Shown here: one piece after another, positions 1,352-53,791 of the stretch
Numbering within the stretch: the stretch's first letter is position 1
Layout of the letters: each line of letters starts with the position of its first letter
NCBI GenBank assembly: GCA_030648255.1
Contig: JAUSHZ010000012.1
Coordinates: 1-60,697, forward strand
DNA from: a bacterium
Lineage (GTDB): Bacteria; Patescibacteriota; Minisyncoccia; Minisyncoccales; CG1-02-41-26
Reading direction: 5' to 3'
DNA length: 60,697 nt
Translations under genes and position numbers: made by a program
Notes under the pieces: generated by a model
Databases searched by the model: none
What the model saw: only the letters and a program-made list of their open reading frames with translations
Told to the model about the DNA's origin: nothing

Positions 1352-2659
1352 ATGGACCCTTCTGCTTTTTTACCAATAATAAAAAGTACTCTGAACATAA
1401 TTTGGCAGGTTTTTTCTGTTTGGTGGTGGCTTCCTTTGCCATTTATTTTTTTCCCAAACTTAAAGTTTATATACGAGTGGTATATGAATGATAAATATTG
1501 GGCCCGAGCCAATTGGATAGTTTTGGAAGTTAAAATATCCAAAGAAATTGACAGGCCATTAAAAGCCATGGAGCAGGTTATTTCTAATTTTTGGCAGGTG
1601 TATGACCCAGCTGATTTTAAAGAAAGATGGTTTGAGGGAAAATATCTTTTAAATTTTTCTTTAGAGATTGCTTCAATTGACGGCAAGATCCATTTTTTTA
1701 TTTATTTGCCCGGAGCTTTTAGAAAGGCCTTTGAATCAGCTATTTATTCTCAATACCCAGAAGTGGAAGTTGACCAGGTAATGGACTACACTCGCAGGGT
1801 TCCTCAAGATATCCCCAATAAGGATTGGGATATATGGGCTTGCAATTTTAAAATGATGAAAAAAAGGTGTTATCCTATTAAAACATATCTTAGTTTTTTT
1901 GAGGCAACCCAAGAAATTGAAGAAGAGAGAAGAGTGGACCCATTAGGAGTTCTTTTAGAGGGGATGTCGCGATTAGGCCCGGGCGAGCAGTTGTGGTTTC
2001 AAGTTATGCTCAAGCCAATTTTAAAAGATGATGAAAATGACTGGAGAATAGAGGGCAGAGAAGAATTAGCCAAGCTTCTAAAAAGACCATTGCCAGCCAA
2101 AGATAACAAAACAATTGTGGGGGAGGCATTTAACCTTTTGCTTCACGACAAAGAGCCATTTAAGTCTGAAGAAAAAGTTGAGCCATTGTTACCGCCTGAA
2201 TTGCATATGAGCCCGGGGGAAAAAGATATGGTGGTGGGCATTGAAAATAAAATGGCAAAGTATGGATTTGAAGCAACTATAAGAATGGCTCTTTTGGGTA
2301 AAAAAGATGCTTTTTTCAAGCCAAACTTGCGATTTGTTTTAAATTTGTCAAGCGGTGTTACCACAATAAATTTAAATGGCCTTAAGCCCTTTATGACAAC
2401 TAAGGTGGTTGCTCCAGCTTTTTTTAGAAATCAAAGGCTATATATTAAAAAAAGAAAGCTTTTTGTGCGATATAGAAGCCGATGGGGCTATTACTTCCCC
2501 AAATATGTTCCCGGCCAGGAAAATGGGCATTTAATTTTAAATCAAGAAGAGATAGCCACCCTATGGCATTTTCCAGGCAAAGCTGCTATGCCAGCCGCCG
2601 GACTTGAAACAATTGAATCCAAAAAAGCCGGCCCACCCGCCAATCTACCGATTGGCTAG
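1352..2659 (+). CDS. Hypothetical membrane protein, upstream partner of the VirD4/TraG-like ATPase
   Basis: This is a 435-aa ORF with a hydrophobic N-terminus (IIWQVFSVWWWLPLPFIFF). I recognise no family motif. Confidence 0.5.
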   Translation: MDPSAFLPIIKSTLNIIWQVFSVWWWLPLPFIFFPNLKFIYEWYMNDKYWARANWIVLEVKISKEIDRPLKAMEQVISNFWQVYDPADFKERWFEGKYLLNFSLEIASIDGKIHFFIYLPGAFRKAFESAIYSQYPEVEVDQVMDYTRRVPQDIPNKDWDIWACNFKMMKKRCYPIKTYLSFFEATQEIEEERRVDPLGVLLEGMSRLGPGEQLWFQVMLKPILKDDENDWRIEGREELAKLLKRPLPAKDNKTIVGEAFNLLLHDKEPFKSEEKVEPLLPPELHMSPGEKDMVVGIENKMAKYGFEATIRMALLGKKDAFFKPNLRFVLNLSSGVTTINLNGLKPFMTTKVVAPAFFRNQRLYIKKRKLFVRYRSRWGYYFPKYVPGQENGHLILNQEEIATLWHFPGKAAMPAAGLETIESKKAGPPANLPIG

Positions 2660-2660
2660 A

Positions 2661-2754
2661 AGCTGTTGAAGCCGAGCTTCAACAGCTTCCGAATTGGGTA
2701 AAAGCTGTTGAAGCCGAGTTTTGGGGAGCCTTTGAAGCTCGGGTTCAACAGCTT
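2661..2754. repeat. Two family-A palindromes (CTGTTGAAGC.GAG... core), intergenic
   Basis: One copy is agctgttgaagccgagcttcaacagct at 2661-2687. The other is aagctgttgaagccgagttttggggagcctttgaagctcgggttcaacagctt at 2702-2754. Confidence 0.8.
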
Positions 2755-2777
2755 CACATAAAATAAACACAAAATCT

Positions 2778-16567: not shown

Positions 16568-16743
16568 GTATCGGATAAAAAAGTTGTTGAAACCCGACTT
16601 CTCAAAACTGAGCTTAAGAGTTTAAAGAAGTCGGGTTTCTGGCTCGGCTTAACGGCTGAGCTTTTTATTGTTTATTGTATCGGATGGAAAAGTTGTTGAA
16701 ACTCGGTTTCCTTGGGTTCTTGAAACCGATCTTCAACAACTTT
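16568..16743. repeat. Repeat-dense leader upstream of the giant gene: two GTATCGGAT.-AAAAGTTGTTGAAAC direct repeats, each opening a palindrome
   Basis: The direct repeats are gtatcggataaaaaagttgttgaaacccg at 16568 and gtatcggatggaaaagttgttgaaactcg at 16677. The palindromes are gaaacccgacttc/gaagtcgggtttc and 16690-16743. Confidence 0.75.
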
Positions 16744-16821
16744 TTCTTGGCTCAAAAGTTATCCACAGATTTATAGTATTGACGGGCTTTACAGCCGTAT
16801 CGGTTATGCGATAATAATACA

Positions 16822-19800
16822 ATGTCGGATTCAGATTTAAATTATATTTCCCTATCGGATGCCGCCAAATACTCTGAGATTTACTCTCAAGAGTATTTGA
16901 GTTTAAGAGCCAGGCAAGGAAAATTTAAAGCAACTAAGTTGGGCAGGAATTGGGTTACAACAAAACAGTGGGTGGACGATTATATTCACTTGGAAAAAAA
17001 TGTTAAAGCCAACGGTGTTCTTCACGAAGAAATAAAAAAAGAAAATTTAGAAAAATTCGAAAAAGAAAATTTAATTTTTGAAAAACCAGTTTTTGAAAAA
17101 CCAGAAATAAAAATACAACCCGCCTCTGCTCCTTCAGAGCTACGGCGTGGCGAAGCAAGAAAATATATTTTTAAATTTGCTTTGGCAAGTTCCATAACAG
17201 CTGTTTTAATTTTTAGCGTATTTATTTTTAAAGATAAAATTATAAAAATAGATAAAACTCTTGACGCAAAATTTATATCCGTAACAAAAAATATTTCTGA
17301 AAATATAAAATTACCAAAAGAAAATTATTTTGTTGGTGTGAATTTTTTGTCAAAAGCTGACTTAGTTTTTGCGGATTTAAAAGATAGTTTTTTAAAGCAA
17401 AACAATCTGGCTGTGAAAAGTATTTTAAATGGAATTCCCAAATCAAACCCTCAACACTATATTTCAAAAGTTAACAATTACTTGGCCATAGAAAAACAAA
17501 GAATAAAATTTTTGACTAGCGAATATAAATTATTCACACAAGAAGTTGAAAAAATCAAACAGGAAATTTCTAACTCGGATATTTTCTTTGCCGTAAAAGA
17601 ATTAAAACAATCATTGGGCAATGGGGTTGTGGCATTGTATAAAACGCACCCGTGGAGTCATTCTGAGGGAGTGGAGCGACCGAAGAATCCCAATGAAAAT
17701 AATGGCCGAGATTCTTCGCTATCGCTCAGAATGACACAGCTTGGGCTGTTTATTACTAAAGCAGATAAAACTCTTGACACTAAATTTTTGAGTTTAGCGA
17801 AATCAGTGCCAACAATCAAAATACCAACAATTAAAATACCAACAAACAGCATAAAGACAGCTATTGCAATATCGCAAGAAATAACAAACAAAAAAATTGA
17901 CCAAGCTTTCTCTAACTTAAAAGATAGTTTTTTACAACAAAACGACTTGGCTGTATCTTCTGTAAAAAATTATTTTGTTGGGATAAATATCTTGACAAAA
18001 GATTACCCAGTAAGAGCGAGGCAACAAATAGTTTTGGTTGCCGATGGCTACCAGCTATCTTTTATTGAAATTAATAGAGTTACGGTTGGCTTTGGCGAAA
18101 GAGCTTTGCAGGCGATAAACAGTTACTCTGCTGTGGCAGACAACTACTTTTCTGCCATTAGCATTTTGGTAAAATCAGCTGGCGAGAGCGCTAAGGAGTT
18201 TGCCAGAAGTTTTGTTGGCGATATAAAGACGGTTGTTATAAAGTCGCAAGAAACAACAAACGAAAAAGCCGGTTTAGTTTTCGCAGATTTAAGAAATAGT
18301 TTTTTACAACAAAACGACTTGGTCGCGCTTGGCGTTTCTGGCGGATTTAAAAATATTGGCGATGGGTTTGTCATTCTGAGGGAGTGGAGCGACCGAAGAA
18401 TCTTGACGGCCGAGACCGAGATTCCTCGGCTCTACCTCGGAATGACAGAGTCCGGGCATTTTGTAGCGCAAAATTTAAAAGATTATTTGGCTTTAGCAAA
18501 AGAAAAAATAAATATCTTAGCTAATATAGCGAGTATAGCGAGCAATGTAAATATAGCAGAAAGTTTAAAAGCAATTCAAAGGCCAGTAGATGATTATTTT
18601 TACGGAATATTTTTTGTGGCAAAAGATTATTTAGCATTGGAAAAACAAAATTTTATCTCGGCTATTAAAGATTATAAGCTATCTACCGTGGGAACCACAA
18701 AAGAAATCGGCAAAGAGATTTTAGCTAATGCTTTGGCTGCAACAAGCAATATAAAAAATAATATCAAAGATAGTATCCAAGAGGGACTGGCAATAACCAA
18801 GCAAAAAACAAAAGATTTATTTGCCAATATAAAAGCCCTTACTATATATATAGTAGAGAGCGCACAAAAAGGATTTTATTATGTAATAAGGCCATGGCTG
18901 GAAGATAAAAATTTATTTTTAGTGCAAGGAGTTAAAGAAACCGAGTTTCTAAAAACTGCCTCTTCCACAGTAATTATTAAAGAAACAGTCGTTATTCGAG
19001 AGAAGCAAGGAAGCTCGGTTTCGACTACCCAAATAACTCAAATTTTTCCAATAAAAGAAATCACAAAAGAAACAATTATTGTTGAAAAAGCTGTTGAAGC
19101 TCGGTTTTGGGAGCCCTTAAAAACCGAGCTTCAACAGCTTAAACTTGCGGTTGCTAACTTGCAAAGTCAAGCTGGAAAAATCCAGTATTACTCGCCGAGC
19201 AACAATGTTCCAACCTCCCCGGTTTATATTGGCTCGTCTGGTTTGGAAATTTCAGGTAATGCGTCTTTGGCTTCTTTGGGGGTTTCTGGTTTTGCTGGGA
19301 TCCGCGATTTAGGTGTGGGTAATTCTTTTTCTGTGGGTTCGGGTGGAACTACTTTAACGGTTGATAAAGAAGGCCGTTTAACATCTCCAAGCATAACGGG
19401 AGGGAGCGGCAGTTTTTCTAGCTTGAGCTCAACTGGCAATATAACAGCAACTGGGGATTTAGCGGTTTCTGGTTCAGCAACTATAGCTGGCAACTTAAAT
19501 GTTGGAGGAATAGCGGTTTTTTCCACCTCCACAATAGCAATGACCACTACTACTGCTTCTATTTTTTCTATTGGCACCAGCACCACAGCTAATTTATTTA
19601 CGGTTGCTGGAACAGGGAATACTGTTTTTCAAAATATTGGCCAAGTTTATATTTTACCAACTGGCACCACTACCATTGGGGCAGGCACTTCCACCCCCAC
19701 TGTTTTAACTGGCTATATTGCCTCTGACATTTTGCCATATTATGACAATACATATAACATAGGCAGTTCGGATTATAGGTGGAAGCAGGGATATTTTGGC

Positions 19801-41542: not shown

Positions 41543-41544
41543 AA

Positions 41545-41634
41545 GGCTGTTGAAGCTCGGTTTTTAGAGAGCCCAAAACCGAGCTTCAACAGCCTCGCCC
41601 TCAAAGTTTGTTGTTGAACCCGAGCTTCAACAAC
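41545..41634. repeat. Family-A long palindrome plus a short hairpin downstream of ftsZ
   Basis: The long copy is ggctgttgaagctcggtttttagagagcccaaaaccgagcttcaacagcc at 41545-41594. The short copy is gttgttgaacccgagcttcaacaac at 41610-41634. Confidence 0.85.
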
Positions 41635-41647
41635 AGCAAATAAACCT

Positions 41648-42653: not shown

Positions 42654-43517
42654 ATGAACAAAGTTACCAAAGACATACTAAAAAAAGTCTACCCACTTCG
42701 CCCCGCAGAGTCCCGCAAGTATGATTTCGGCCTTTTGCTTATCATTGGTGGAGGAGAGTTTTATACTGGCTCTCCGGCTTTGTCAGCCATGGCTGCTTTT
42801 AGGGCAGGTGTGGATATGGCGCATATCTTAGCGCCAAAAAGAGCGGCTGATATTGTTGCTGGTTTTTCGCCAAACTTGGCGGCTTTTCCATTAAAAGGCG
42901 ACTGGCTTGATAAAGAAGATGTGCCTGTTTTAATTTCGCATGCAATTTCAGCTAAGTCAGTCTCTTTGGATAAGACAGCTATTGTTATTGGGGGTGGAGT
43001 TGGGCGCTCGGTTGAAACTCAAGAGGCATTGGCCGATTTCTTGCAAGAAACAGACAGTAAAATAGTAGTAGACGCTGACGCTATTTATGCCTTATCTAAA
43101 AGCCCGCTTTCTATAAAAGATAATCCAGCCATTATTACGCCAAATATCCACGAATTTTTTATTTTAACAGGAAAAAAGGTAGATGGTTTGTTAATTGAAG
43201 AAAAAGCTAAGATTGTGCAAGAAGAGGCGCTAAAAATTAATTCCACAATTTTATTAAAAGGTTTTGTTGATATAATATCAGATGGCAAAGAAACAATTAT
43301 TGATGAAACAGGCACACCTTATATGACGGTTGGAGGCACAGGCGACACTTTGGCTGGAATTTGCGGGGCGTTTTTGGCCATGGGTTTTTCGCCTTTTATA
43401 TCAGCTCAAGCTGGAAGTTTTGTAAATGGGAAAGCAGGGGAACTGGCAAGTAAGAAGTTTGGTCCAAGTATGACAGCAATGGACTTGATTGAGGAAATAA
43501 CAAACGCAATTAAATAG
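42654..43517 (+). CDS. nnrD: NAD(P)H-hydrate dehydratase (YjeF C-terminal / carbohydrate kinase family)
   Basis: Residues KYDFGLLLIIGGGEFYTGSPALSAMAAFRAGVD and GGTGDTLAGICGAFLAMG fit this family. Confidence 0.75.
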   Translation: MNKVTKDILKKVYPLRPAESRKYDFGLLLIIGGGEFYTGSPALSAMAAFRAGVDMAHILAPKRAADIVAGFSPNLAAFPLKGDWLDKEDVPVLISHAISAKSVSLDKTAIVIGGGVGRSVETQEALADFLQETDSKIVVDADAIYALSKSPLSIKDNPAIITPNIHEFFILTGKKVDGLLIEEKAKIVQEEALKINSTILLKGFVDIISDGKETIIDETGTPYMTVGGTGDTLAGICGAFLAMGFSPFISAQAGSFVNGKAGELASKKFGPSMTAMDLIEEITNAIK

Positions 43518-43577
43518 TTGTTGAAGTTTGACTTCAACAAGCTTGTTGAAGTCAAACTTCAAAAGCTCAATAACTTT

Positions 43578-44555
43578 ATGCTTGATTTAATTATAATTGG
43601 CGGGGGGCCAGCTGGAGTCACTGCTGGCATTTACGCTTCTCGGAAAAAATTAAATACCTTGATTATTGCCAAAGATTTTTTTGGTCAAATTTCAAAAACA
43701 GGCCAAGTGGATAATTGGCCAGGGGATATGGCCATCAGCGGAGTGAACCTGGCTTTAAAATTAGAAAAGCATTTAAAAAGTTTTTTAGTTGAGATAAAAG
43801 AAGGTCAAAAAGTAGTGGCTGTTTCTTACGCTCCCGTCATTCTGAGCCAGCAGGCGAAGAATCTCGGCTGCGACCCTTCGCTAATCACTCAGGGTGACAA
43901 ATTCACGGTGCAGATTGAAAGTGGGGAAATTTTTGAGGCCAAGGCATTAATAATTGCCACTGGCCGAAACGCTAAAACTTTGTGCGTTGAAGGCGAACAG
44001 GATTTTGTGGGCAAGGGGCTTTCTTATTGTTCAATTTGCGATGCGCCGTTTTTTAAAGATAAGCAAGTGGCGGTTTTTGGAGGTGGAAACGCTGGCTTTG
44101 AAACAGCTTTGGATTTAATAAAATACGCTAAAAAAGTTTTTATTTTTGAAAAGAGCGACAAAATTTTAGCTGACGAGGCCTTAGTTGAAAAAGCAAAAAT
44201 AACTGGAAAAATAGAAATTTGTTTGCAAGTAGAAATTTTAAAGGTAGAAGGCACAAACAGAGTCCAGTCAATAGTTTATAAAAATTTGGCTTCGGGTAAA
44301 ACAATGCAGCAGCCAATGGACGGGGTATTTGTGCAAATCGGCTCGGTGCCAGCCACTGGATTTTTAGGGAAGTTAGTTGATTTTGATGAAGACAATGAAA
44401 TAAAAGTTGATTCAAAAACCTTGGAAACGTCGGTTAAGGGGATATTTGCCGCTGGCGATTGCAATGATACAAAGTGGAAACAAGCCATAATTGCCGCAGG
44501 ACAAGGAGCAACTGCCGCGCTATCGGCTTACGAGTTTTTACAGAAGGGCTGTTGA
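43578..44555 (+). CDS. trxB: Thioredoxin-disulfide reductase
   Basis: FAD and NAD GxGxxG motifs are present (IIIGGGPAG, VFGGGNAG). The redox centre is CSICD, and GDC lies near the C-terminus. The start is set at ATG 43578. The track's 20-codon extension is a nested palindrome at 43517-43565. Confidence 0.85.
   Translation: MLDLIIIGGGPAGVTAGIYASRKKLNTLIIAKDFFGQISKTGQVDNWPGDMAISGVNLALKLEKHLKSFLVEIKEGQKVVAVSYAPVILSQQAKNLGCDPSLITQGDKFTVQIESGEIFEAKALIIATGRNAKTLCVEGEQDFVGKGLSYCSICDAPFFKDKQVAVFGGGNAGFETALDLIKYAKKVFIFEKSDKILADEALVEKAKITGKIEICLQVEILKVEGTNRVQSIVYKNLASGKTMQQPMDGVFVQIGSVPATGFLGKLVDFDEDNEIKVDSKTLETSVKGIFAAGDCNDTKWKQAIIAAGQGATAALSAYEFLQKGC
43835..43901. repeat. Family-B palindrome in frame inside trxB
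   Basis: The sequence cgtcattctgagccagcaggcgaagaatctcggctgcgacccttcgctaatcactcagggtgacaaa is read as VILSQQAKNLGCDPSLITQGDK. Confidence 0.85.
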
Positions 44556-44596
44556 AGCTCGGTTTTGGGAGCCCTAAAAACCGAGCTTCAACAGCC
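44547..44596. repeat. Family-A long palindrome containing the trxB stop codon
   Basis: The sequence is ggctgttgaagctcggttttgggagccctaaaaaccgagcttcaacagcc. trxB ends GGC TGT TGA inside it. Confidence 0.85.
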
Positions 44597-44608
44597 TACT
44601 AATAACAT

Positions 44609-45898
44609 ATGAAAATTCTATCTCTTAAAGCTCGAGAAATTTTAGATAGCCGTGGCGTGCCAACGGTGGAAGCGATTTTAGAAACTGATGGCGGGTTGTT
44701 TAAGGCGTCTGTTCCGTCGGGCACTTCAACGGGCAAATATGAGGCGTTTGAACTGCGAGACAACGACGAGCGGTTTTTTGGCAAAGGCGTTTTAAAAGCA
44801 GTGAAAAATATTGAGAAAAAAATAGCGGAAGCTATTTTAAATAAAGATTTTTCCAGCCAAAAAGATCTGGACGATTTTTTAATAAAATTAGATGCTACAG
44901 AAAATAAGTCGCATTTAGGGGCAAACGCGATTTTAGCTGTTTCAATGGCGGGTTGTCGGGCTTTTGCCTGCGAAAAAAACCAGGAGCTTTTTGAGTTTAT
45001 AGCTGTTGAAGCTCGGTTTTTAGGGGGCCCAAAACCGAGCTTCAACAGCCCCAACAGTCCCGAAATTTGGCTTCCAACTCCGTGCTTTAATATAATAGAA
45101 GGAGGAAAGCACGCAGGCAATAACCTTGAAGTGCAAGAATTTATGGCTGTGCCATTTTTGGAAAGTTTTGCTGAAAACCTGCGATCCGGGGCTGAAGTTT
45201 ATTACCATTTAAAGTTGCTTTTAATAAAAAATTTTGGCGAAACTGCCATGAACACAGGCTATGAGTCAGGATTTGCTCCAGCTTTCAAAAAAACCGAAAC
45301 AGCTTTTGAATTTTTGTTAAAAGCTATCCAAAAAGCGGGCTATGAAGGAAAATTCAAAATTGGTTTGGACATAGCATCAAGCGAGCTTTTATACAAGGAA
45401 AAATATAGAATTAATGCTAAGTTTTTTTCTCCAAAAAAACTTGCTGATTATTATTTGAAACTTTACCACAATTACCCAATAGCTTTTATTGAAGATGGTT
45501 TTGGTCAGGATGATTTAACGGGCTGGCGGGGATTAGAATCAGGAATCAAGAATCAGGAATTAGGAATTATTGTAGTGGGGGATGATTTAACAGCTACTAA
45601 TCCAGAAAGAATAAAAATGGCGCAAGAGAAAAATTTATGCAATGCTGTTATTATAAAACTTAACCAAATTGGGTCAGTAACAGAAGCAATCAATGCGGCT
45701 AACTTGGCAAAAAGTTTTAACTGGAAAGTTATTGTATCGCACAGAAGCGGTGAAACAAACGACGACTTTATTGCTGATTTTGCAGTTGGCATTGGAGCTG
45801 ATTTTATTAAAACAGGCGCACCAGCTGGTGGAGAAAGAGTGGCAAAATATAACCGTTTACTAGAAATTGAAAAAGAGCTGTTGAAGCTCGGTTTTTAG
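44609..45898 (+). CDS. eno: Enolase
   Basis: The N-terminus reads KAREILDSRGVPTVEA. Residues NIIEGGKHAGN, IEDGF..DD, VGDDLTATN and SHRSGET are also present. Confidence 0.9.
   Translation: MKILSLKAREILDSRGVPTVEAILETDGGLFKASVPSGTSTGKYEAFELRDNDERFFGKGVLKAVKNIEKKIAEAILNKDFSSQKDLDDFLIKLDATENKSHLGANAILAVSMAGCRAFACEKNQELFEFIAVEARFLGGPKPSFNSPNSPEIWLPTPCFNIIEGGKHAGNNLEVQEFMAVPFLESFAENLRSGAEVYYHLKLLLIKNFGETAMNTGYESGFAPAFKKTETAFEFLLKAIQKAGYEGKFKIGLDIASSELLYKEKYRINAKFFSPKKLADYYLKLYHNYPIAFIEDGFGQDDLTGWRGLESGIKNQELGIIVVGDDLTATNPERIKMAQEKNLCNAVIIKLNQIGSVTEAINAANLAKSFNWKVIVSHRSGETNDDFIADFAVGIGADFIKTGAPAGGERVAKYNRLLEIEKELLKLGF
45001..45050. repeat. Family-A long palindrome in frame inside enolase
   Basis: The sequence agctgttgaagctcggtttttagggggcccaaaaccgagcttcaacagcc is read as AVEARFLGGPKPSFNS. 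It is identical to the copy at 49031-49079. Confidence 0.9.
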
Positions 45899-45922
45899 AG
45901 AGCCCAAAACCGAGCTTCAACA
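45876..45922. repeat. Family-A long palindrome containing the enolase stop codon
   Basis: The sequence is gagctgttgaagctcggtttttagagagcccaaaaccgagcttcaaca. eno ends ...E LLKLGF TAG inside it. Confidence 0.85.
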
Positions 45923-45962
45923 TCCTCGCCCCCGAAGCTCGGTTTCAACAGCTTTAAAACAT

Positions 45963-46613
45963 ATGTATAAATTAGTATTATTACGGCATGGAGAGAGCTT
46001 GTGGAACAAAGAAAATATTTTCACTGGCTGGGTTGATATTGGCCTTTCCGATTCTGGAAGAGAGCAGGCAAAAAGAGCTGGTTTTCTATTAAAAGAAAAC
46101 GGTTTTGTTTTTGATATGGCCTTTACTTCGGTTTTAAAAAGAGCCACTCAAACTTTAGAAGTTGTTTTGAAAGAAATGGGCCTGACAGATGTAGTAATAG
46201 TAGAAAGGTCTTTATGCTTAAACGAAAGGCATTACGGAGCCCTGCAGGGCGTTAACAAGGACACGGTCATTGAAAAATTTGGCCTTGAACAATTTACGAT
46301 TTGGAGAAGAGGATATAAGGGCAGGCCTCCCGCCGTCGCTAAAGCTTTGGCGGGCTCGCCCGCCAGCGAATCGCTGGAAGATGTTTTCTTAAGAGTTGTT
46401 CCATATTGGGAAGAGAAAATAGCGCCAGCAATTTTACAGCAAAAAAGTGTTTTAATTGTGGCTCATGGAAATTCCTTAAGGGCTTTAGTAAAAATGCTGG
46501 ATAATATTTCAGACAAAGATATTGAAAAATTAGAAATTCCCATTGGTGTACCCATTGTTTATGAGCTTGACGAAAACTTAAAGCCAATTGCTTTTTCTAA
46601 ACTGGTTTGTTAA
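45963..46613 (+). CDS. gpmA: 2,3-bisphosphoglycerate-dependent phosphoglycerate mutase
   Basis: It contains LVLLRHGESLWNKENIFTGWVD (RHGE motif), ERHYGALQG and AHGNSLRAL. Confidence 0.85.
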   Translation: MYKLVLLRHGESLWNKENIFTGWVDIGLSDSGREQAKRAGFLLKENGFVFDMAFTSVLKRATQTLEVVLKEMGLTDVVIVERSLCLNERHYGALQGVNKDTVIEKFGLEQFTIWRRGYKGRPPAVAKALAGSPASESLEDVFLRVVPYWEEKIAPAILQQKSVLIVAHGNSLRALVKMLDNISDKDIEKLEIPIGVPIVYELDENLKPIAFSKLVC

Positions 46614-46629
46614 AATAATAAATTGAATA

Positions 46630-46741
46630 CCCCAGTTAAGTAGCTCACTAATCGCTCGCACTTAACGGGGTGTAAGAACTCGTAAAATTCTGCTGCAATT
46701 TTATGGGGTAAAAATTGCAGCAAGAATTAACGATTTCTAAC
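46630..46741 (+). promoter_or_regulatory. Conserved leader: hairpin ccccagttaag...cttaacgggg plus both conserved boxes
   Basis: The boxes are ggggtgtaagaactcgtaaaattc at 46667-46690 and attaacgatttctaac at 46726-46741. It ends 6 nt before ATG 46748. Confidence 0.5.
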
Positions 46742-46747
46742 AAAAAT

Positions 46748-47752
46748 ATGATAAAAGACAAAGAACAAATTAAGTCAATCGTTATCGGTGTTTTAGCTGT
46801 TGGTATTTTGGCAATAGCTTATTACACATTTTTCGGTTCGCCAACAAGCTTAACAGCAAAGGGGGCAACAGATATTGCTTTGGGCTATATTAATAGCACT
46901 TTATTAACAGACGGCTCAACAGCAACAATAGACGGCGCTGTTTCCAGCCAGAGCGGGCTTTATAAGTTTAAGTTAAAAGTTGGAGAGCAAAGCTTTGATT
47001 CTTTTATAACAAAAGATGGCAAATTTTTATTTCCTCAAGTTATTGAAATAAAACAATCAACTTCAACAGCACCTGTGGCTAATAATAATCAGCCAGCTCC
47101 AAAAACCTGCGAAGATGTTGCAAAAGAGGCAACTCCTCAAATGGAAGCATTTGTGGTTTCTTATTGCCCGTATGGTTTGCAAATGCAAAGGGTTTTAGCT
47201 GAGGTTGTGAATAGTGCTTCTGCATTGCAGTCAAATATTAAGATTATGTATATGGGGTCAATCAGCGGAGGAAAAATTCAATCAATGCATGGCGATCAAG
47301 AAGCAGTTGAAAATTTGAAACAAATTTGTATTAGAGAAGAACAGCCAACAAAATTTTATCCTTACTTGAATTGCTTTATAAAAGAAGAAGGAAAGTCTGA
47401 TGAGTGTTCCACTGCAGCTGGAATTGACACAACAAAATTAAAGGCCTGCACAACCGACCCAAACAAGGGCTTAAAATACGCGCAAGCTGACTTTACGGCA
47501 AGTGAAAAATACGGAGTTTCTGGCTCACCAACTTTAATTTTAAATGGTCAGAAGGTTAGCGAATATGACTTTGGAGGTAGAACTGCCCAAGCAGTGAAAA
47601 CCCTATTATGCTGTGGATTTAACCAGCCACCAGAAATTTGTTCAACAGATATTTCAACAGCCCAAGCTGCCCCAAGTTTTTCTACAACTTATGCTGGCTC
47701 TGGCGGGGGAACTTCAAATTCAGGAGGAACTAATTGCGCTCCTGCAAAGTAA
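46748..47752 (+). CDS. Membrane-anchored thioredoxin-fold protein (monothiol CPYG)
   Basis: MIKDKEQIKSIVIGVLAVGILA parallels the paralog at 47999. It contains FVVSYCPYGLQ and a GSPTLILNG motif. The start is set at ATG 46748, because the track's TTG 46715 lies inside the leader. Confidence 0.6.
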   Translation: MIKDKEQIKSIVIGVLAVGILAIAYYTFFGSPTSLTAKGATDIALGYINSTLLTDGSTATIDGAVSSQSGLYKFKLKVGEQSFDSFITKDGKFLFPQVIEIKQSTSTAPVANNNQPAPKTCEDVAKEATPQMEAFVVSYCPYGLQMQRVLAEVVNSASALQSNIKIMYMGSISGGKIQSMHGDQEAVENLKQICIREEQPTKFYPYLNCFIKEEGKSDECSTAAGIDTTKLKACTTDPNKGLKYAQADFTASEKYGVSGSPTLILNGQKVSEYDFGGRTAQAVKTLLCCGFNQPPEICSTDISTAQAAPSFSTTYAGSGGGTSNSGGTNCAPAK

Positions 47753-47992
47753 GTAATCCGTTAGCGATGGCGAGGCGATTAGCCGAAGCCAGAGCTTACG
47801 GAGGACTTACCCCGTGAAGTAAAATTTGTACTCAAATTTTAAATTTAGCAAAATTTAAAATTACTTCACTGGGGTGTGGTAAGAATACAAACAAACCCCA
47901 GTTAAGTAGCTCGCTCCGCCAGCTGGCGGACGCTCGCACTTAACGGGGTGTAAGAACTCGTAAATTCGCTTCGCTCATTAACGATTTCTAAC
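47753..47992 (+). promoter_or_regulatory. Full-length leader element: outer imperfect palindrome, nested hairpin and both conserved boxes
   Basis: gtaatccgttagcgatgg...ttacggaggacttaccccgtgaagta...tacttcactggggtg...ccccagttaagtagctcgc...cacttaacgggg. The boxes lie at 47945-47967 and 47976-47992. Confidence 0.5.
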
Positions 47993-47998
47993 AAAATT

Positions 47999-48730
47999 AT
48001 GATAAAAAATAAAGAACAAATAAAAACAATAGTTATCGGCGTTTTAGCAGTGGGAATATTAGTGATGGCTTACCTTGTTTTCGCTGGCACACCAAACGGT
48101 TTATCTGGTGATAAAGCAGCAAAAAAGGCAATTGATTTCGTCAATGCAAAGGTTTTAACTGGAGAAAATAGGGCAAGCATTGACGGAAAAGTGGTTTCAG
48201 AAAGCGGGCTTTATAAATTCAATGTAAAAGTGGCAGCAGATTCTTTTCCTTCCTATGTTTCTAAAGACGGAAAATTGCTTTTTCCCCAAGTTATGAAAAT
48301 TGAGGATGTTGCTGGCAACGGCATTACTCCAACAACTATCCAAGCCGACCAAAAAACAATAGGCGAGTTTTCTGTTTCAAAGGACGAGGTTTGTTTGGAA
48401 AACGGCAAGCCAATTGTTTACTTCTTTGGAGAAGATAAATGCCCGCACTGTGTTTGGGAACACCCAATTGTCCAAAAAGTTGCTAATCAATTTCAGGGGC
48501 TTATCTCTTTTCATGACAATATGAACAATATTAGTAAAGATATAGATATTTTTACAAAATATAGCCCAAGTGGAAGCGTGCCTGTTTTAGTTATTGGCTG
48601 TAAATACTATAGAGTTGGCACTGTTGAGCCAGAAACAGCCGAAGGCGCTTTGGAGGCAGAAAATAATCTTGTTTCTTTGGTTTGCCAATTAACTAATAAC
48701 CAGCCATCTGGGTTATGCACCCAACCATAA
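47999..48730 (+). CDS. Membrane-anchored thioredoxin-fold protein (CPHC)
   Basis: The N-terminal anchor is paralogous to 46748. It contains FFGEDKCPHCVWEHP and a GSVPVLVIG motif. Confidence 0.65.
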   Translation: MIKNKEQIKTIVIGVLAVGILVMAYLVFAGTPNGLSGDKAAKKAIDFVNAKVLTGENRASIDGKVVSESGLYKFNVKVAADSFPSYVSKDGKLLFPQVMKIEDVAGNGITPTTIQADQKTIGEFSVSKDEVCLENGKPIVYFFGEDKCPHCVWEHPIVQKVANQFQGLISFHDNMNNISKDIDIFTKYSPSGSVPVLVIGCKYYRVGTVEPETAEGALEAENNLVSLVCQLTNNQPSGLCTQP

Positions 48731-48813
48731 CCCCAGTTAAACAGCTCCCTGAGGTCGCGTTTAACAGGGTGTAAGTTCTCGTAAATTCGTTTCACTCATT
48801 AACGATAACTAAC
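48730..48813 (+). promoter_or_regulatory. Conserved leader: hairpin plus both boxes, abutting ATG 48814
   Basis: The hairpin is ccccagttaaacagctccctgaggtcgcgtttaacaggg. The boxes are gggtgtaagttctcgtaaattc at 48767-48788 and cattaacgataactaac at 48797-48813. Confidence 0.5.
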
Positions 48814-49053
48814 ATGTCAAAAATAAAAGTATATTCAACAGAGTTTTGCCCATACTGTGTTGCTTTAAAAGAATTTTTAAAGGAAAATAAAATTGATTTT
48901 GAGGCAGTTGATGTAACCGAAGATTTAAAAGCTCAAGATGAAATGATTGAAAAATCTGGCCAACTGGGCGTGCCGGTCATAGATATCAACGGTGAGATTA
49001 TAGTAGGATTTGACAGGGAGAGAATAAAACAGCTGTTGAAGCTCGGTTTTTAG
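48814..49053 (+). CDS. Glutaredoxin/NrdH-like small redox protein
   Basis: At 79 aa, it contains YSTEFCPYCVALKEFL...GVPVIDING. The last six codons and the stop lie in a family-A palindrome. Confidence 0.8.
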   Translation: MSKIKVYSTEFCPYCVALKEFLKENKIDFEAVDVTEDLKAQDEMIEKSGQLGVPVIDINGEIIVGFDRERIKQLLKLGF

Positions 49054-49079
49054 GGGGCCCAAAACCGAGCTTCAACAGC
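49030..49079. repeat. Family-A long palindrome containing the glutaredoxin stop codon
   Basis: The sequence is cagctgttgaagctcggtttttagggggcccaaaaccgagcttcaacagc. The gene ends Q LLKLGF TAG. Confidence 0.9.
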
Positions 49080-49108: not shown

Positions 49109-50074
49109 ATGACAAGAATTGCTATAAATGGTTTTGGCAGAATTGGAATGCTCACAGCTCAAAGGATGCAGGAAAAGCATCCTAATTTAGAATTAGTGGC
49201 TATAAACGAGGTCAACCCCGTTGAAAAGCAAGCTTTCAACAGGGCAAGATTTTTTTCTGAAAAAGATCCATCAAATTTGCCCTGGAAAGATTTGGAGGTT
49301 GATACTGTTTTGGAGTGTTCTGGTTTTTTTACAGAATTGAACGCCGCTAAAAAACATTTGTTGGCGGGCGCTAAAAAAGTAATAATTTCAGCGCCATCGG
49401 ATTCACCAGAAATTCCTGTTTTTTTATTGGGAGTTAATGCCCAGAATTATAAAGGCGAAGCAATAATTTCCATGGGTTCTTGCACAACCAATGCTGTGGC
49501 CCCTTTGGCAAAAATTTTAGACGCAAATTTTGGCGTTAAAAATGGTTTTGTCAATACAGTGCATAGCTACACTAATTCACAAAATAAATTATATCCAAAC
49601 TGGCGACAAGAACCAGCTAGCAAGCTAAGCATTATTCCTTCCACAACCGGAGCCACCAAAACTATTGAAAAATGTTTGCCAAAATTAAAAGGCAAGCTAA
49701 ACGGCCTTTCTTTAAGAGTGCCCACAGAAACAGTTTCCATTGTGGAATTTGTTTTTTTAGCAAAGAAAAAAGCCACAGTTGAACAAGTAAACGCAGTATT
49801 GCAGAGAGCCGCCGAAGAATTTCAAGGCACTCGGTTCCTTGAAAGGGGATTCAAGGAACCGAGTGCCTTGAAATCCCCAAGCAATATTTTAAAATTTGAA
49901 AATAAAAAATTAATTTCTACGGATTTAAAAAATAGCGAGTATTCCTCAATAATTGATGGCTCGTTGACCCAAACATTTGGCAAGCTAATAAAGGTTTTCG
50001 CTTGGTATGATAATGAGTGGGGGTATATCTGCAGATTAGCCGAAATGGCGGAGTACATCGGGGGCAAGAATTAG
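49109..50074 (+). CDS. gap: Glyceraldehyde-3-phosphate dehydrogenase
   Basis: It contains RIAINGFGRIG, the catalytic SCTTNA and WYDNEWGY. Confidence 0.9.
   Translation: MTRIAINGFGRIGMLTAQRMQEKHPNLELVAINEVNPVEKQAFNRARFFSEKDPSNLPWKDLEVDTVLECSGFFTELNAAKKHLLAGAKKVIISAPSDSPEIPVFLLGVNAQNYKGEAIISMGSCTTNAVAPLAKILDANFGVKNGFVNTVHSYTNSQNKLYPNWRQEPASKLSIIPSTTGATKTIEKCLPKLKGKLNGLSLRVPTETVSIVEFVFLAKKKATVEQVNAVLQRAAEEFQGTRFLERGFKEPSALKSPSNILKFENKKLISTDLKNSEYSSIIDGSLTQTFGKLIKVFAWYDNEWGYICRLAEMAEYIGGKN
49819..49873. repeat. Family-D double hairpin in frame inside gap
   Basis: The sequence atttcaaggcactcggttccttgaaaggggattcaaggaaccgagtgccttgaaat is read as FQGTRFLERGFKEPSALKS. Confidence 0.85.
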
Positions 50075-52972: not shown

Positions 52973-53791
52973 GTTGTTGAACCCGAGCTTCAACAGCAAA
53001 ATAAAAATATGAGATTTGAAACAATTCAAGTAGGCGAGTATGCCCATATTTATAACAGAGGCAACCGTAAACAAGATATTATTAAAAATGAAAAAGACAG
53101 CTGGCGTTTTATTCAGGCCTTAATGTTTTTTAATGACAGCCATTCTTCAGTAAATATCTTGCGTCAGATTGTTTCCTCAAAAGCTAAAAAAACTGTTGAA
53201 CCCGAGCTTCAACAGATGCCAGAGTCGGTGTTTAGAATGGGTTGGCCAAAAGATTGGCCAGAAAAAGATCCGTTAGTTAAAATTTTATGTTATTGTTTAT
53301 CACCTAATCATTTTCATTTGCTCTTACAAGAAATTCGCGAGGGCGGTATTAGTAAGTTTATGCAAAAATTTGGTGGTGGTTATACGAAATATTTTAATAT
53401 AAAACATAAAGAAGTGGGACGAGTTTTTCAAGGGCCTTATAAAATAAAAATAGTCGGAAGCGATCAAGTTTATCTTGAGTATTTAAGCGCTTATATTCAA
53501 GTAAAAAATGTTTTAGAATTATTTCCAGGCGGTATTCAGGAGGCGAAAAAAAATATTAGCGAGGCAATAAAGTTTTTAGAAAAGTATGTTTTTTCAAGTT
53601 GTCCAGATTTTTTAGGCGTTCGTAATTCCCTAATTATTGATAAAGGTATTTTGGGAGAGATTTTTCCAACTATAGATGACTACAAGAAGTTTATTGTGAG
53701 TTTAATTGAAAGTGGCAGTTTTGACCACGAAGTTATAGCTGATTCTTTATTTGATGAGTAGTAAAAACTGTTGAAGCTCGGGTTCAACAAC
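52973..53791 (+). mobile_element. REPtron-like unit: a RAYT-like gene bracketed by exact inverted 24-mers
   Basis: GTTGTTGAACCCGAGCTTCAACAG at 52973-52996 has its exact reverse complement at 53768-53791. A third copy sits in frame at 53193-53215. Confidence 0.65.
53009..53761 (+). CDS. Y1 (HUH) tyrosine transposase, IS200/IS605 TnpA / REP-associated (RAYT)-like
   Basis: The HUH motif reads SPNHFHLLLQE. It also has RVFQGPYKIKIV and the Tyr motif YLSAYIQVKNV. Confidence 0.7.
   Translation: MRFETIQVGEYAHIYNRGNRKQDIIKNEKDSWRFIQALMFFNDSHSSVNILRQIVSSKAKKTVEPELQQMPESVFRMGWPKDWPEKDPLVKILCYCLSPNHFHLLLQEIREGGISKFMQKFGGGYTKYFNIKHKEVGRVFQGPYKIKIVGSDQVYLEYLSAYIQVKNVLELFPGGIQEAKKNISEAIKFLEKYVFSSCPDFLGVRNSLIIDKGILGEIFPTIDDYKKFIVSLIESGSFDHEVIADSLFDE

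What the first reader, a model, noticed from the sequence alone, without database searches (positions are those of the whole stretch)
44547..49079. One palindrome, three frames: internal copies use the only open frame and terminal copies supply the stop codon
The family-A long palindrome (ctgttgaagctcggtttt-loop-aaaaccgagcttcaacag) is open in only one frame, which reads AVEARF.... Both intragenic copies (eno 45001-45050 and the giant gene 19090-19138) are read in exactly that frame. In the other two frames the element stops translation. trxB ends GGC TGT TGA at 44547. eno and the glutaredoxin both end with the element-encoded peptide LLKLGF followed by TAG (45876 and 49030). The copy inside eno and the copy ending the glutaredoxin are the same 49-mer. 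This looks like frame-dependent survival of insertions and C-terminal remodelling by a mobile hairpin.
Basis: seen in the sequence. Interest (0 to 1): 0.75.

Follow-up and report, generated by a model that had tools for sequence, protein, structure and literature searches.

The report
Mobile hairpin repeats overlapping gene ends
A 48-base hairpin repeat has spread through this candidate-phyla-radiation (Paceibacteria) genome fragment, sitting between genes, on stop codons and in frame inside enolase, and it shares its core with hairpins that bracket a transposase-like gene in the same window, so it looks like a new variant of the bacterial REP/RAYT repeat system.

Summary
The sequence facts are correct. 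There are six near-identical long hairpins, arm CTGTTGAAGCTCGGTTTT. trxB ends on TGA inside an arm. eno and grx end LLKLGF-TAG. One copy lies in frame in eno and another in the giant ORF.

"Only one open frame" holds only per orientation. The loop is asymmetric, and the giant-gene copy is an inverted variant with an 11-nt loop.

What it is: ORF 53009-53761 is an IS200-like HUH/Y1 transposase. Short hairpins sharing the 14-nt core CTGTTGAAGCTCGG flank it on both sides in inverted orientation, and a third copy lies in frame inside it. Six of six orthologues in related Paceibacteria contigs show the same trio. Their lineage-specific hairpin sequences co-vary (93.5% paired, 7 of 10 pairs doubly changed).

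Syntenic relatives lack the hairpin at the trxB end, the eno end and the eno loop. All three empty sites read AGCT|AAA at the junction.

Best reading: REP/RAYT-like mobile hairpins. Frame use is survivorship. The stop codons are by-products of insertion where there is almost no intergenic space.

C-terminal remodelling is small: trxB +1 aa and eno +2 to +5 aa. In grx only GF is new, because LLKL is ancestral.

This is a new variant of a known kind, of moderate interest.

The parts
44547..44596 (.). Long family-A hairpin in reverse loop orientation (GGGAGCCCTA). It fills the trxB-eno spacer, and the trxB stop TGA (44553-44555) lies in its left arm.
   Evidence: DNA fold -24.7 kcal/mol, z -9.5. 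It is absent at the orthologous junction in L001, L003 and L016.
45002..45049 (.). Long hairpin in forward orientation (loop TAGGGGGCCC), 48 nt = 16 codons. It lies in frame in enolase and encodes AVEARFLGGPKPSFNS in the interdomain linker.
   Evidence: The enolase model keeps its fold (pLDDT 86, lowest at residues 143-148). L001 has the empty site TTTATAGCT|AAAGAA.
45877..45924 (.). Long hairpin in forward orientation (loop TAGAGAGCCC, one arm mismatch). It supplies the last codons LKLGF and the stop TAG (45896-45898) of enolase.
   Evidence: Relatives end EIEKELY* (L001), EIEKELNDL* (L003) and EIEQNLLTI* (L016).
45930..45953 (.). Partial or short family-A unit that follows the eno-end copy after the spacer CCTCGCCCCC.
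49032..49079 (.). Long hairpin in forward orientation, the same 49-mer as the eno-internal copy. It supplies GF and the stop TAG (49051-49053) of glutaredoxin.
   Evidence: grx orthologues without the hairpin already end in LLKL-like sequence.
41544..41595 (.). Long hairpin in forward orientation, starting 1 nt after the ftsZ stop (TGA 41540-41542).
   Evidence: L016 carries an orthologous hairpin at the same junction, with one compensated arm change.
41612..41636 (.). Short family-A hairpin (GTTGTTGAACCCGAGCTTCAACAAC) just upstream of the NTP-transferase start.
19088..19140 (.). Long hairpin in reverse orientation with an 11-nt loop (GGGAGCCCTTA). It lies in frame in the 3226-aa ORF and encodes AVEARFWEPLKTELQQL.
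   Evidence: The only homologue found is distant and aligns across the segment without a net gap, so insertion is not demonstrated at this site.
43516..43567 (.). REPIN-like doublet of two diverged short hairpins in inverted orientation, pivoting on AAGCTT. It overlaps the stop TAG (43515-43517) of the carbohydrate-kinase gene and lies upstream of the likely trxB start (ATG 43578).
   Evidence: -20.1 kcal/mol
52973..52997 (.). Short family-A hairpin immediately upstream of the Y1 transposase gene.
53009..53761 (+). RAYT-like HUH/Y1 (IS200-like) transposase gene, 250 aa. The HUH motif is NHFHLLL. Tyr155, Tyr162, Gln164 and Asn167 are invariant.
   Evidence: Pfam PF01797 at 33.8 bits against a cut-off of 23. 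Family alignment. Model and Foldseek hits to IS608, ISDra2 and IS200 TnpA. Single copy in the window.
53192..53216 (.). Short family-A hairpin in frame inside the transposase gene (KTVEPELQQM). It has the same orientation as the upstream copy.
   Evidence: The position is conserved in 6 of 6 orthologues, each with its own lineage's hairpin.
53767..53791 (.). Short family-A hairpin just downstream of the transposase stop, inverted relative to the upstream copy (loop GCTCGGG versus CCCGAGC).
2659..2755 (.). Cluster of diverged family-A units in the spacer after ORF 1352-2659. The hairpin begins at the last base of its stop codon TAG (2657-2659).
16585..16744 (.). Two diverged cousin hairpins upstream of the giant ORF.

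Best explanation
Family A is a REP/REPIN-like family of small non-autonomous hairpin elements in a Paceibacteria (CPR) genome. It is most likely mobilised in trans by the single RAYT-like HUH/Y1 transposase encoded at 53009-53761.

Inferred mechanism, by analogy with IS200/IS605 TnpA and RAYTs:
- The enzyme recognises the hairpin on single-stranded DNA.
- It cuts at the foot of the hairpin.
- It places copies next to an AGCT tetranucleotide, without target duplication.

The genome is about 90% coding, and neighbouring genes abut or overlap. New copies therefore survive only in three kinds of place:
- In the few spacer bases between genes.
- On the last codons of a gene. There the element's own stops end the protein within 2 to 7 codons. 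These stops are TGA inside CTGTTGA in either orientation, and TAG at the start of the forward loop.
- In permissive surface loops, in the one reading frame without a stop. The 48-nt unit adds 16 codons there.

Shown: the anatomy, the frames, the empty orthologous sites, the transposase fold and motifs, the flanking and internal cognate hairpins, and the covariation across genomes.

Inferred: that this enzyme moves these hairpins, the AGCT targeting, and selection as the filter.
For: 1. The repeat family is far above chance, and its units fold as very stable hairpins.
2. ORF 53009-53761 is a Y1_Tnp protein above Pfam's cut-off, with an HUH motif and invariant Tyr residues. Its best structural matches are all IS608, ISDra2 or IS200 transposases.
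3. The gene is flanked by short hairpins in inverted orientation that share the 14-nt core CTGTTGAAGCTCGG with the long-form arms. A third copy lies in frame inside it.
4. Six of six orthologous genes (window, L004, L005, L007, L013, L014) have the same upstream, internal and downstream trio, each with a lineage-specific hairpin sequence. On 17 such hairpins, 93.5% of cells pair and 7 of 10 pairs show double changes. No shuffle of 500 reached this, and slid controls gave 27-48%.
5. In a second genome (L001/L005) the single long form shares a 13-nt core with that genome's own transposase hairpins. It keeps the same loop (AAGGGCTCCC) as the window. L011 shows the same loop with a third stem.
6. 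Relatives are empty at the trxB end, the eno end and the eno loop. All three empty sites read AGCT|AAA at the junction. Doublets in the window, L004 and L017 pivot on AGCT.
7. Only 3 of 12 family-A loci are intragenic, at about 90% coding density. The binomial P is about 1.6e-7 (calculated by hand from the counts, not by a tool).
8. The transposase gene sits at the same place, after the N_methyl/Laminin_G_3 gene, in the window and in L005. This fits a vertically inherited, domesticated gene.
Against: - No activity is shown.
- The curated RAYT model fails: NCBIfam NF047646 gives 14.3 bits against a cut-off of 80. There is no sequence-level match to any solved Y1 transposase.
- The hairpins lack the GTAG or CGTC head of classical REPs.
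- In four relatives the cognate short hairpins were seen only around the transposase gene within about 20 kb. Dispersal is therefore documented mainly in this window.
- The long form has a conserved loop that the transposase-flanking short form lacks.
- At grx, and possibly the giant ORF, the element overlies sequence that already resembled it and adds little or no net length. Simple insertion does not explain this well.
- Only one 60.7-kb contig of the genome is available.
Confidence: 0.68

Rival explanations
1. An RPE-like or MITE-like selfish hairpin that spreads by an unknown route, such as host recombination or replication slippage. On this view the Y1 gene is merely another place where the hairpins accumulate.
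For: - In-frame copies in housekeeping genes resemble Rickettsia palindromic elements, as summarised in PMC3733652.
- The curated RAYT model is not matched.
- The long form carries a conserved loop that is absent from the transposase-flanking hairpins.
- In relatives the short hairpins are hardly dispersed.
Against: - A cognate hairpin trio around and inside the Y1 gene in 6 of 6 genomes, with covariation, is hard to explain by passive accumulation.
- In two genomes the long-form arms track that genome's own transposase hairpins.
- There are no terminal inverted repeats plus target duplication of the MITE kind.
Confidence: 0.14
2. The hairpins are host-selected structural signals at gene ends, such as mRNA 3' stabilisers, terminators or protein-binding sites. 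On this view they are kept in place rather than mobile, and the overlap with stop codons reflects genome compaction.
For: - Nine of 12 loci are at gene 3' ends or in spacers, all between co-directional genes, as for classical REPs (PMC3733652).
- The ftsZ-NTP-transferase junction carries an orthologous hairpin in L016 with a compensated change, so structure is preserved over time.
Against: - No T-tract follows the long hairpins, and none is called as a plus-strand terminator.
- There is no Rfam family.
- Identical 49-mers occur inside enolase and at the grx end.
- The orthologous junctions are empty or hold unrelated repeats in relatives.
- A regulatory role and mobility are not mutually exclusive.
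Confidence: 0.1
3. Copies arise or are renewed by conversion, that is by overwriting pre-existing similar sequence or older resident hairpins, rather than by fresh insertion. This would explain sites with no net gain in length.
For: - The ancestral grx end CAGCTGCTTAAGCT resembles the arm CAGCTGTTGAAGCT, and LLKL is ancestral.
- The giant-ORF copy aligns to a non-palindromic homologue without a net gap.
- The same sites carry different hairpin sequences in different lineages: the eno loop, the eno end, a site in the ATP-grasp gene, and the internal site of the transposase gene.
Against: - The eno loop gains about 11-13 residues over hairpin-free orthologues, and the gap family-B copy is a clean gain of 17-20 aa.
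- The giant-ORF homologue is only 36% identical.
- Re-insertion at a preserved AGCT target explains repeated use of a site equally well.
Confidence: 0.08

Closest known systems
REP/REPIN-RAYT systems (Nunvar 2010, PMC2817692; Bertels and Rainey 2011, PMC3116915; Bertels 2017, PMC5581495)
   Same: - A single-copy HUH/Y1 transposase gene is flanked by two cognate palindromes in inverted orientation.
- The same palindrome is dispersed mainly in extragenic space, as singlets and as inverted doublets that form longer hairpins.
- Palindromy is kept by compensatory change.
- The gene sits at a syntenic position.
   Different: - The host is a CPR bacterium (Paceibacteria). My literature searches found no report of such a system there.
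- The protein is about 245 aa, fails the curated RAYT model, and has no sequence-level match to solved Y1 enzymes.
- There is no GTAG or CGTC head. The recurrent junction is the palindromic AGCT.
- A cognate hairpin lies in frame inside the transposase gene in every orthologue examined.
- A 48-nt near-perfect long form has a loop conserved across lineages.
Rickettsia palindromic elements (RPE) and intragenic REPs (Di Nocera 2013, PMC3733652, which also summarises Ogata et al.)
   Same: - Palindromic repeats are inserted in frame in genes for apparently functional proteins.
- Some copies lie at ORF ends.
- The authors likewise argue that disruptive insertions were purged.
   Different: - No sequence relation, and a different phylum.
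- This element is much smaller: 48 nt, whereas RPE-1 is about 100-150 nt by my own knowledge.
- Here a candidate mobilising enzyme with cognate flanks is present in the same window.
IS200/IS605 insertion sequences (IS608, ISDra2)
   Same: - The Y1 fold is the best structural match.
- Hairpins lie at both ends of the gene.
- Insertion next to a fixed tetranucleotide without target duplication, an established property of that family, matches the AGCT junctions seen here.
   Different: - The gene-plus-hairpins unit is single-copy and syntenic, not multi-copy.
- The flanking hairpins are the same sequence inverted, not distinct left and right ends.
- What has multiplied is the hairpin alone.
Bacterial MITEs (for example Correia elements; review PMC10969869)
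   Same: Small non-coding repeats that land next to or inside genes and can alter gene ends.
   Different: There are no terminal inverted repeats flanking an internal segment, and no target-site duplication is detectable. The whole element is one hairpin.

Membership tests
REP/RAYT system | The associated protein is an HUH/Y1 (IS200-like) tyrosine transposase with an HUH motif and a catalytic Tyr. | tested here: met
   - Pfam PF01797 gives 33.8 bits against a cut-off of 23.
- NHFHLLL is present, and Y155, Y162, Q164 and N167 are invariant in 43 homologues.
- The top Foldseek hits are IS608, ISDra2 and IS200 TnpA, at probability 1.0 and TM 0.5-0.6. The model's pLDDT is only 64.9.
REP/RAYT system | [quoted passage not shown] | tested here: met
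   Hairpins 52973-52997 (loop CCCGAGC) and 53767-53791 (loop GCTCGGG) flank the gene. The same arrangement is seen in L004 and L007, and flanking hairpins occur in 6 of 6 orthologues.
REP/RAYT system | The flanking palindrome is over-represented elsewhere in the same genome. | tested here: inconclusive
   Within the 60.7-kb contig there are about 12 loci sharing the core, against 0.04 matches expected. The rest of the genome is not available. In four relatives no dispersed copies were seen within about 20 kb.
REP/RAYT system | The transposase is single-copy and vertically inherited. | tested here: inconclusive
   - There is one copy in the window.
- It has the same neighbour gene in L005.
- There are 871 homologues, mostly single-member clusters in CPR assemblies.
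- L004 holds a diverged paralogue with its own hairpin type.
- No whole genome or phylogeny was examined.
REP/RAYT system | A conserved GTAG or CGTC tetranucleotide head at the hairpin foot (PMC3733652). | tested here: not met
   No GTAG or CGTC is present. The feet read RGCT...AGCY, and AGCT recurs at junctions.
REP/RAYT system | The protein matches the curated RAYT model. | tested here: not met
   NCBIfam NF047646 REP_Tyr_transpos gives 14.3 bits against a cut-off of 80.
REP/RAYT system | The enzyme binds and cleaves its cognate hairpins. | not testable with these tools
   This needs biochemistry.
Rickettsia palindromic elements (RPE) | A palindromic repeat inserted in frame in genes that remain plausibly functional. 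| tested here: met
   The eno copy adds 16 codons in the interdomain linker, and the model keeps the enolase fold.
Rickettsia palindromic elements (RPE) | Sequence membership of an RPE family in a Rickettsia lineage. | tested here: not met
   The host is Paceibacteria by closest homologues. There is no Rfam match, and the sequence is unrelated.
IS200/IS605 insertion sequence | The whole unit (gene plus ends) is the mobile, multi-copy entity. | tested here: not met
   The gene is single and syntenic, and only the hairpins are repeated.
IS200/IS605 insertion sequence | Insertion 3' of a specific tetra- or pentanucleotide without target duplication. | tested here: inconclusive
   Three of three empty sites read AGCT|AAA, and the doublets pivot on AGCT. 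However, GCT also pairs with AGC at the other foot, so it may belong to the element. n = 3.
Intrinsic transcription terminator | A GC-rich hairpin followed by a T-tract. | tested here: not met
   The hairpins are followed by CCTACT, CCCCAA, CCTCGC or CAACTC. None is called on the plus strand.
MITE | Terminal inverted repeats with a target-site duplication. | tested here: not met
   No direct duplication flanks any of the six copies.

The most novel reading that the evidence does not exclude
A CPR-wide subfamily of domesticated Y1 transposases carries its own cognate hairpin in frame inside its own gene. Its hairpins repeatedly occupy the same AGCT sites in housekeeping genes in different lineages, namely the enolase linker and C-terminus, the ATP-grasp gene and gene junctions.

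This would imply a site-specific, possibly reversible hairpin cassette exchange. It would remodel protein loops and termini, and may autoregulate the transposase.
Probability: 0.18. Interest if true: 0.85.

Novelty: new variant of a known kind. Interest (0 to 1): 0.58.

Why it matters
REP/RAYT systems are described mainly from Proteobacteria and a few other phyla, and as extragenic. This window shows a compact CPR genome with almost no spacer DNA, in which the same kind of system is forced onto stop codons and into proteins. The affected proteins include enolase and the transposase itself, and sister hairpin families lie in GAPDH and FtsZ.

Three practical points follow.
- It explains odd insertions and C-terminal tails in CPR protein predictions, and some gene-calling errors. 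One example is an NTP-transferase start extended through a hairpin in L016.
- It offers a candidate target motif (AGCT) and a testable enzyme-substrate pair.
- The conserved in-frame hairpin inside the transposase gene is a feature I found in no paper searched.

If the hairpins are indeed re-used at fixed sites, they would be a source of lineage-specific surface variation in otherwise conserved enzymes.

Tried and rejected
- **Exact two-arm scans.** These found nothing in GTDB species genomes, JGI metagenomes or IMG/VR. A genome-wide census of this family was therefore impossible.
- **Relaxed scan.** I kept only the outer stem and the conserved loop. It returned the already known L001 contig, one metagenome copy (L011) and chance hits.
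- **Giant-ORF segment.** The homologue search found one protein at 36% identity, which is too distant to define an empty site.
- **Solved structures.** Sequence and profile searches against PDB gave no meaningful hit for the Y1 protein. Only the fold search worked.
- **Rfam.** It gave only spurious miRNA-model matches to other hairpins.
- **Terminator reading.** Rejected, because no T-tract follows the hairpins.
- **MITE reading.** Rejected, because there is no target duplication.
- **Assembly artefact.** Rejected, because the copies sit in different and otherwise well-conserved contexts.
- **Right-hand boundary of the element.** I could not fix it, nor decide whether GCT belongs to the element or to the target.
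- **Alternative genetic code (TGA as sense).** Not supported. TGA ends ftsZ at exactly the same residue as in L001.

Full report

Yes, for the sequence facts.
- The arm CTGTTGAAGCTCGGTTTT gives 20 matches at up to 3 mismatches in 60.7 kb, against 0.04 expected.
- These resolve into six long hairpins: 19088-19140, 41544-41595, 44547-44596, 45002-45049, 45877-45924 and 49032-49079. Five have perfect 17-21-bp arms and one has a single arm mismatch. Loops are 10 or 11 nt.
- As single-stranded DNA they fold at -23 to -25 kcal/mol, with z about -9.
- trxB (ORF ending at 44555) ends GGC TGT TGA inside the left arm.
- eno (44609-45898) and the glutaredoxin gene (48814-49053) both end CTG TTG AAG CTC GGT TTT TAG, which reads LLKLGF-stop.
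- The eno-internal copy reads AVEARFLGGPKPSFNS. The copy in the 3226-aa ORF begins AVEARF.
- The eno-internal and grx-terminal copies are the same 49-mer.
- All six copies are bounded by G...C. The unit is therefore 19+10+19 = 48 nt, or 16 codons.

**2.

The palindrome is not symmetric, because the loop gives it an orientation.
- Four copies have the loop TAGRGRGCCC on the plus strand.
- Two copies (44547 and 19088) have its reverse complement.

Translating all frames gives three cases.
- Forward copies are open only in the AVEARF...KPSFNS frame.
- Reverse copies with a 10-nt loop are open only in the LLKLGFG.PKNRASTA frame. In the AVEARF frame they read AVEARFWEP-stop.
- The giant-ORF copy is a reverse copy with one extra T in the loop. 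The extra base removes that stop and shifts the second arm into a different frame (KTELQQL).

So "one open frame" holds per orientation, and the two intragenic copies are not read identically. A copy inside an intact ORF is in an open frame by definition, so two such copies cannot show a frame bias. TGA inside CTGTTGA is present in both orientations. TAG is present only at the start of the forward loop.

**3. What the window is**

The closest enolase homologues, at 65-78% identity, come from Candidatus Pacebacteria/Paceibacterota assemblies.

Four contigs are syntenic with window 40-54 kb. The gene order is ftsZ, NTP-transferase, carbohydrate kinase, trxB, eno, gpm, two thioredoxin-fold genes, grx, gap, ATP-grasp.
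- L001/L005 come from GCA_028718785.1.
- L003 comes from GCA_043797465.1.
- L016 comes from GCA_964501975.1.
- L017 comes from an ENA metagenome.

The window is about 90% coding and nearly all genes are on one strand. In relatives, neighbouring genes often overlap by ATGA. Examples are trxB/eno in L003, eno and the next gene in L016, and grx/gap in L017.

**4. The key finding outside the given coordinates**

ORF 53009-53761 (250 aa) is an IS200-like Y1 transposase.
- Pfam PF01797 gives 33.8 bits against a cut-off of 23.
- It has an HUH motif (NHFHLLL) and a Tyr-bearing helix (YLEYLSAYIQVKN). In 43 homologues, H13, N16, R17, G18, N100, H103, Y155, Y162, Q164 and N167 are invariant, and H101 is conserved in at least 90% of them.
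- An AlphaFold model (pLDDT 65) shows the beta-alpha-beta-beta-alpha-beta-alpha core. Its best PDB matches are all IS608, ISDra2 or IS200 transposases, at probability 1.0 and target TM 0.5-0.6.

Three short hairpins accompany the gene.
- A 25-nt hairpin (52973-52997, GTTGTTGAACCCGAGCTTCAACAGC) lies immediately upstream.
- The inverted form (53767-53791, ACTGTTGAAGCTCGGGTTCAACAAC) lies immediately downstream.
- A third copy lies in frame inside the gene (53192-53216, KTVEPELQQM).

These short hairpins share the 14-nt core CTGTTGAAGCTCGG with the arms of the long form, so they belong to the same family. A tyrosine-transposase gene flanked by two cognate palindromes in inverted orientation is the defining arrangement of REP-associated tyrosine transposases (PMC2817692).

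**5. Comparative support**

The protein has 871 homologues at E <= 1e-5. Those that carry a name come from CPR/Parcubacteria assemblies, and they are 55-80% identical to the window's protein.

I fetched five orthologous loci (L004, L005, L007, L013, L014).
- All have a hairpin just upstream, a hairpin in frame at the same internal position (about +180 nt), and a hairpin just downstream.
- The sequence differs by lineage. L004 has CTGTTGACACTCGGTGTCAACAG, L005 has GTGGTTGGTATCCGATACCAACCAC, and L007 has CTGTTGACATCTGATGTCAACAG.
- In the protein alignment the only hypervariable segment is exactly this internal site.

On 17 such hairpins:
- 93.5% of cells form pairs.
- 7 of 10 pairs show changes on both sides.
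- 0 of 500 shuffles reach the observed covariation.
- Sliding the partner by 1-3 columns drops pairing to 27-48%.

The long form also tracks the local hairpins in a second genome.
- In L001/L005 the single long form is CTGTTGATATCAGATTTC-AAGGGCTCCCA-GAAATCCGATATCAACAG.
- It shares a 13-nt core with that genome's own transposase hairpins.
- It has the same loop as the window's copies.
- L011 has the same loop on a third stem.

So hairpins and transposase co-evolve, and the long form tracks the local short form.

A diverged paralogue in L004 (2511-3245) carries hairpins of another type, GAAGGAGCYGAGCTCCTTC and AAGGAACCGAGTTCC. These resemble the window's second hairpin family. This suggests one transposase paralogue per hairpin family.

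**6. Evidence for insertion**

At the DNA level, syntenic relatives run collinear with the window up to the left foot of the hairpin and then diverge.
- eno loop: L001 reads TTTATAGCT|AAAGAA.
- eno 3' end: L003 reads GGAGCT|AAACGA.
- trxB 3' end: L001 reads AAGAGCT|AAAGAG.

All three empty sites read AGCT|AAA. AGCT occupies only about 0.6% of positions in the window.

Doublets of hairpins pivot on the same palindromic tetranucleotide.
- Window 43516-43567 and the L004 doublet upstream of its transposase pivot on AAGCTT.
- The L017 doublet at 5951-5988 pivots on AGCT.

This fits the established behaviour of IS200/IS605 enzymes, which insert next to a fixed tetranucleotide without target duplication. 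However, GCT also pairs with AGC at the other foot, so I cannot decide whether it is target or element.

Only 3 of 12 family-A loci are intragenic despite about 90% coding density. The binomial P is about 1.6e-7 (my hand calculation). Di Nocera et al. report the same pattern of extragenic and 3'-end preference for classical REPs (PMC3733652).

**7. How big is the protein remodelling?**

It is small.
- **trxB:** ...LQKGC*, against ...LQKS* in L001 and ...LQGS* in L017.
- **eno C-terminus:** ...EIEKELLKLGF*, against ...ELY* (L001)...ELNDL* (L003) and ...NLLTI* (L016).
- **grx:** the window ends QLLKLGF*. Orthologues without any hairpin end QLLKL* (L017, DNA CAGCTGCTTAAGCTATGA overlapping the gap start), KILKLET* (L001) and KLLSLTT* (L003). 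LLKL is therefore ancestral, and only GF plus the stop come from the element. The ancestral DNA already resembled the arm, which simple insertion does not explain.
- **eno loop:** the window has 23 residues between FI and LPxPCFN, against 10-12 in hairpin-free orthologues. An AlphaFold model of the window's enolase keeps the fold (pLDDT 86, pTM 0.89). The insert extends a helix and then forms the least confident loop, residues 143-148.
- **giant ORF:** the only homologue (36% identity) aligns across the hairpin-encoded peptide with no net gap, and its DNA is not palindromic. Insertion is not demonstrated there.

**8. Recurrent use of the same sites**

- L017 carries a different, GC-rich hairpin (CCGACCCCCGAGGTCGGG) at the same enolase linker site, again just after AGCT. 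It carries a second copy at the enolase 3' end. That copy is read through in its open frame and extends the protein by about 19 residues. This is an independent replicate of the window's pattern of one internal and one terminal copy in eno.
- L016 has yet another imperfect palindrome in the eno loop.
- The enolase alignment shows many lineage-specific inserts at that site.
- The ftsZ-NTP-transferase junction carries an orthologous hairpin in L016, differing from the window's arm by one compensated pair.

These sites are therefore hot spots. They could be re-used through a preserved target, or resident hairpins could be renewed by conversion.

**9. Mechanism and rivals**

My best-supported explanation, at confidence about 0.68, is a REP/REPIN-like family mobilised by the RAYT-like enzyme. 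The frame and stop-codon pattern is then a survivorship effect in a genome with almost no spacer DNA.
- Copies persist in spacers.
- They persist on terminal codons, where the element's TGA or TAG ends translation quickly.
- They persist in permissive loops in the stop-free frame.

The rivals, with my confidence in each:
- Host-selected structural signals at gene ends (0.10). No T-tract follows the hairpins, none is called as a plus-strand terminator, and there is no Rfam family.
- Conversion or overwriting rather than insertion (0.08).

A host function at the RNA level is not excluded and would be compatible with mobility.

**10. Comparison with known systems, and novelty**

It works like REP/RAYT, and the in-frame copies resemble Rickettsia RPEs and the intragenic REPs catalogued in PMC3733652.

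The membership tests are mixed.
- Met: the Y1 fold and motifs, and the inverted flanking palindromes.
- Inconclusive: genome-wide over-representation and single-copy inheritance.
- Not met: the GTAG or CGTC head, and the curated RAYT model (14.3 bits against a cut-off of 80).

Four literature searches found no description of REP/RAYT systems in CPR bacteria, or of a cognate hairpin conserved inside the transposase gene. Absence from that library is not proof of novelty.

I rate this as a new variant of a known kind. It is only partly borne out here.

Noticed in passing
window 40270-40331 (ftsZ), 49819-49874 (gap), 50380-50424 (ATP-grasp gene): A second hairpin family (TTTCAAGGMACTCGGTTCCTTGA and a cousin) lies in frame in three housekeeping genes. 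In both ftsZ and gap it reads FQGTRFLE..FKEPS.LKS. The gap copy is a clean insertion of 17-20 aa relative to L001 and L003. A paralogous Y1 gene in L004 (2511-3245) carries similar hairpins inside and downstream of itself, so the cognate transposase is probably elsewhere in this genome.
   Followed up: partly
window 50380-50424; L001 9361-9411; L003 5819-5861: The orthologous ATP-grasp genes of three genomes each carry an in-frame hairpin at the same position, but with different sequences. The window and L001 arms share AAGGA...TCCTT and both encode the conserved KEL. This suggests an old insertion that kept its pairing through compensatory change, or repeated re-use of the site.
   Followed up: partly
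window 46626-46752, 47893-48001, 48729-48816: A conserved two-hairpin leader precedes each of the three thioredoxin-fold genes (GILT/DsbA-like, an unknown protein, and glutaredoxin). Its consensus is ACCCCAGTTAAGTAGCTC...GCACTTAACGGGGTGTAAGAACTCGTAAATTC...ATTAACGATTTCTAAC. Five base pairs show compensatory change among the three copies. There is no Rfam match. L001 has these genes packed without such leaders.
   Followed up: partly
window 43836-43905 (trxB), 9825-9886 (ORF 9224-11143), 17639-17753 (giant ORF): A third palindrome family of the GTCATYCTGAG...CTCAGRATGAC type is read in frame in three genes. The encoded peptides include VILSQQAKNLGCDPSLITQGDK and HSEGVERPKNP...LSLRMTQ.
   Followed up: no
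window 41354-41397 (ftsZ C-terminal region) and 6761-6800: A fourth, GC-rich hairpin family (CGACCCCACCCCTC...GAGGAGTGGGGTCG) lies in coding sequence. The ftsZ copy encodes SPTPPLRLPKRRSGVGGS.
   Followed up: no
L017 6406-6449 and 7327-7368: In another Paceibacteria lineage the enolase gene carries a different GC-rich hairpin at the same linker site. It carries a second copy at its 3' end, read through in frame, which gives a C-terminal extension of about 19 aa.
   Followed up: yes
L001 3500-3800: The trxB gene of GCA_028718785.1 appears to carry a duplication of its last 30 or so codons (WKQAIIA...SAYEFLQ occurs twice). The two copies are separated by a hairpin-rich segment with stops, so the gene call ends early. 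This is a possible example of a disruptive repeat-associated rearrangement.
   Followed up: no
L016 1025-1080: The public gene call for the NTP-transferase starts inside the junction hairpin (MKAVETRCRHRVSTANKF-MEEKLEV...). The conserved start is the downstream ATG. This is a gene-calling artefact caused by the open frame of the hairpin.
   Followed up: yes
window 41596-41611 and 45925-45934: Two long copies are followed by the same spacer, CCTCGCCC(T/C)C, and then a short or partial unit. This suggests a composite unit (long hairpin, spacer, short hairpin) that was copied as a whole.
   Followed up: no
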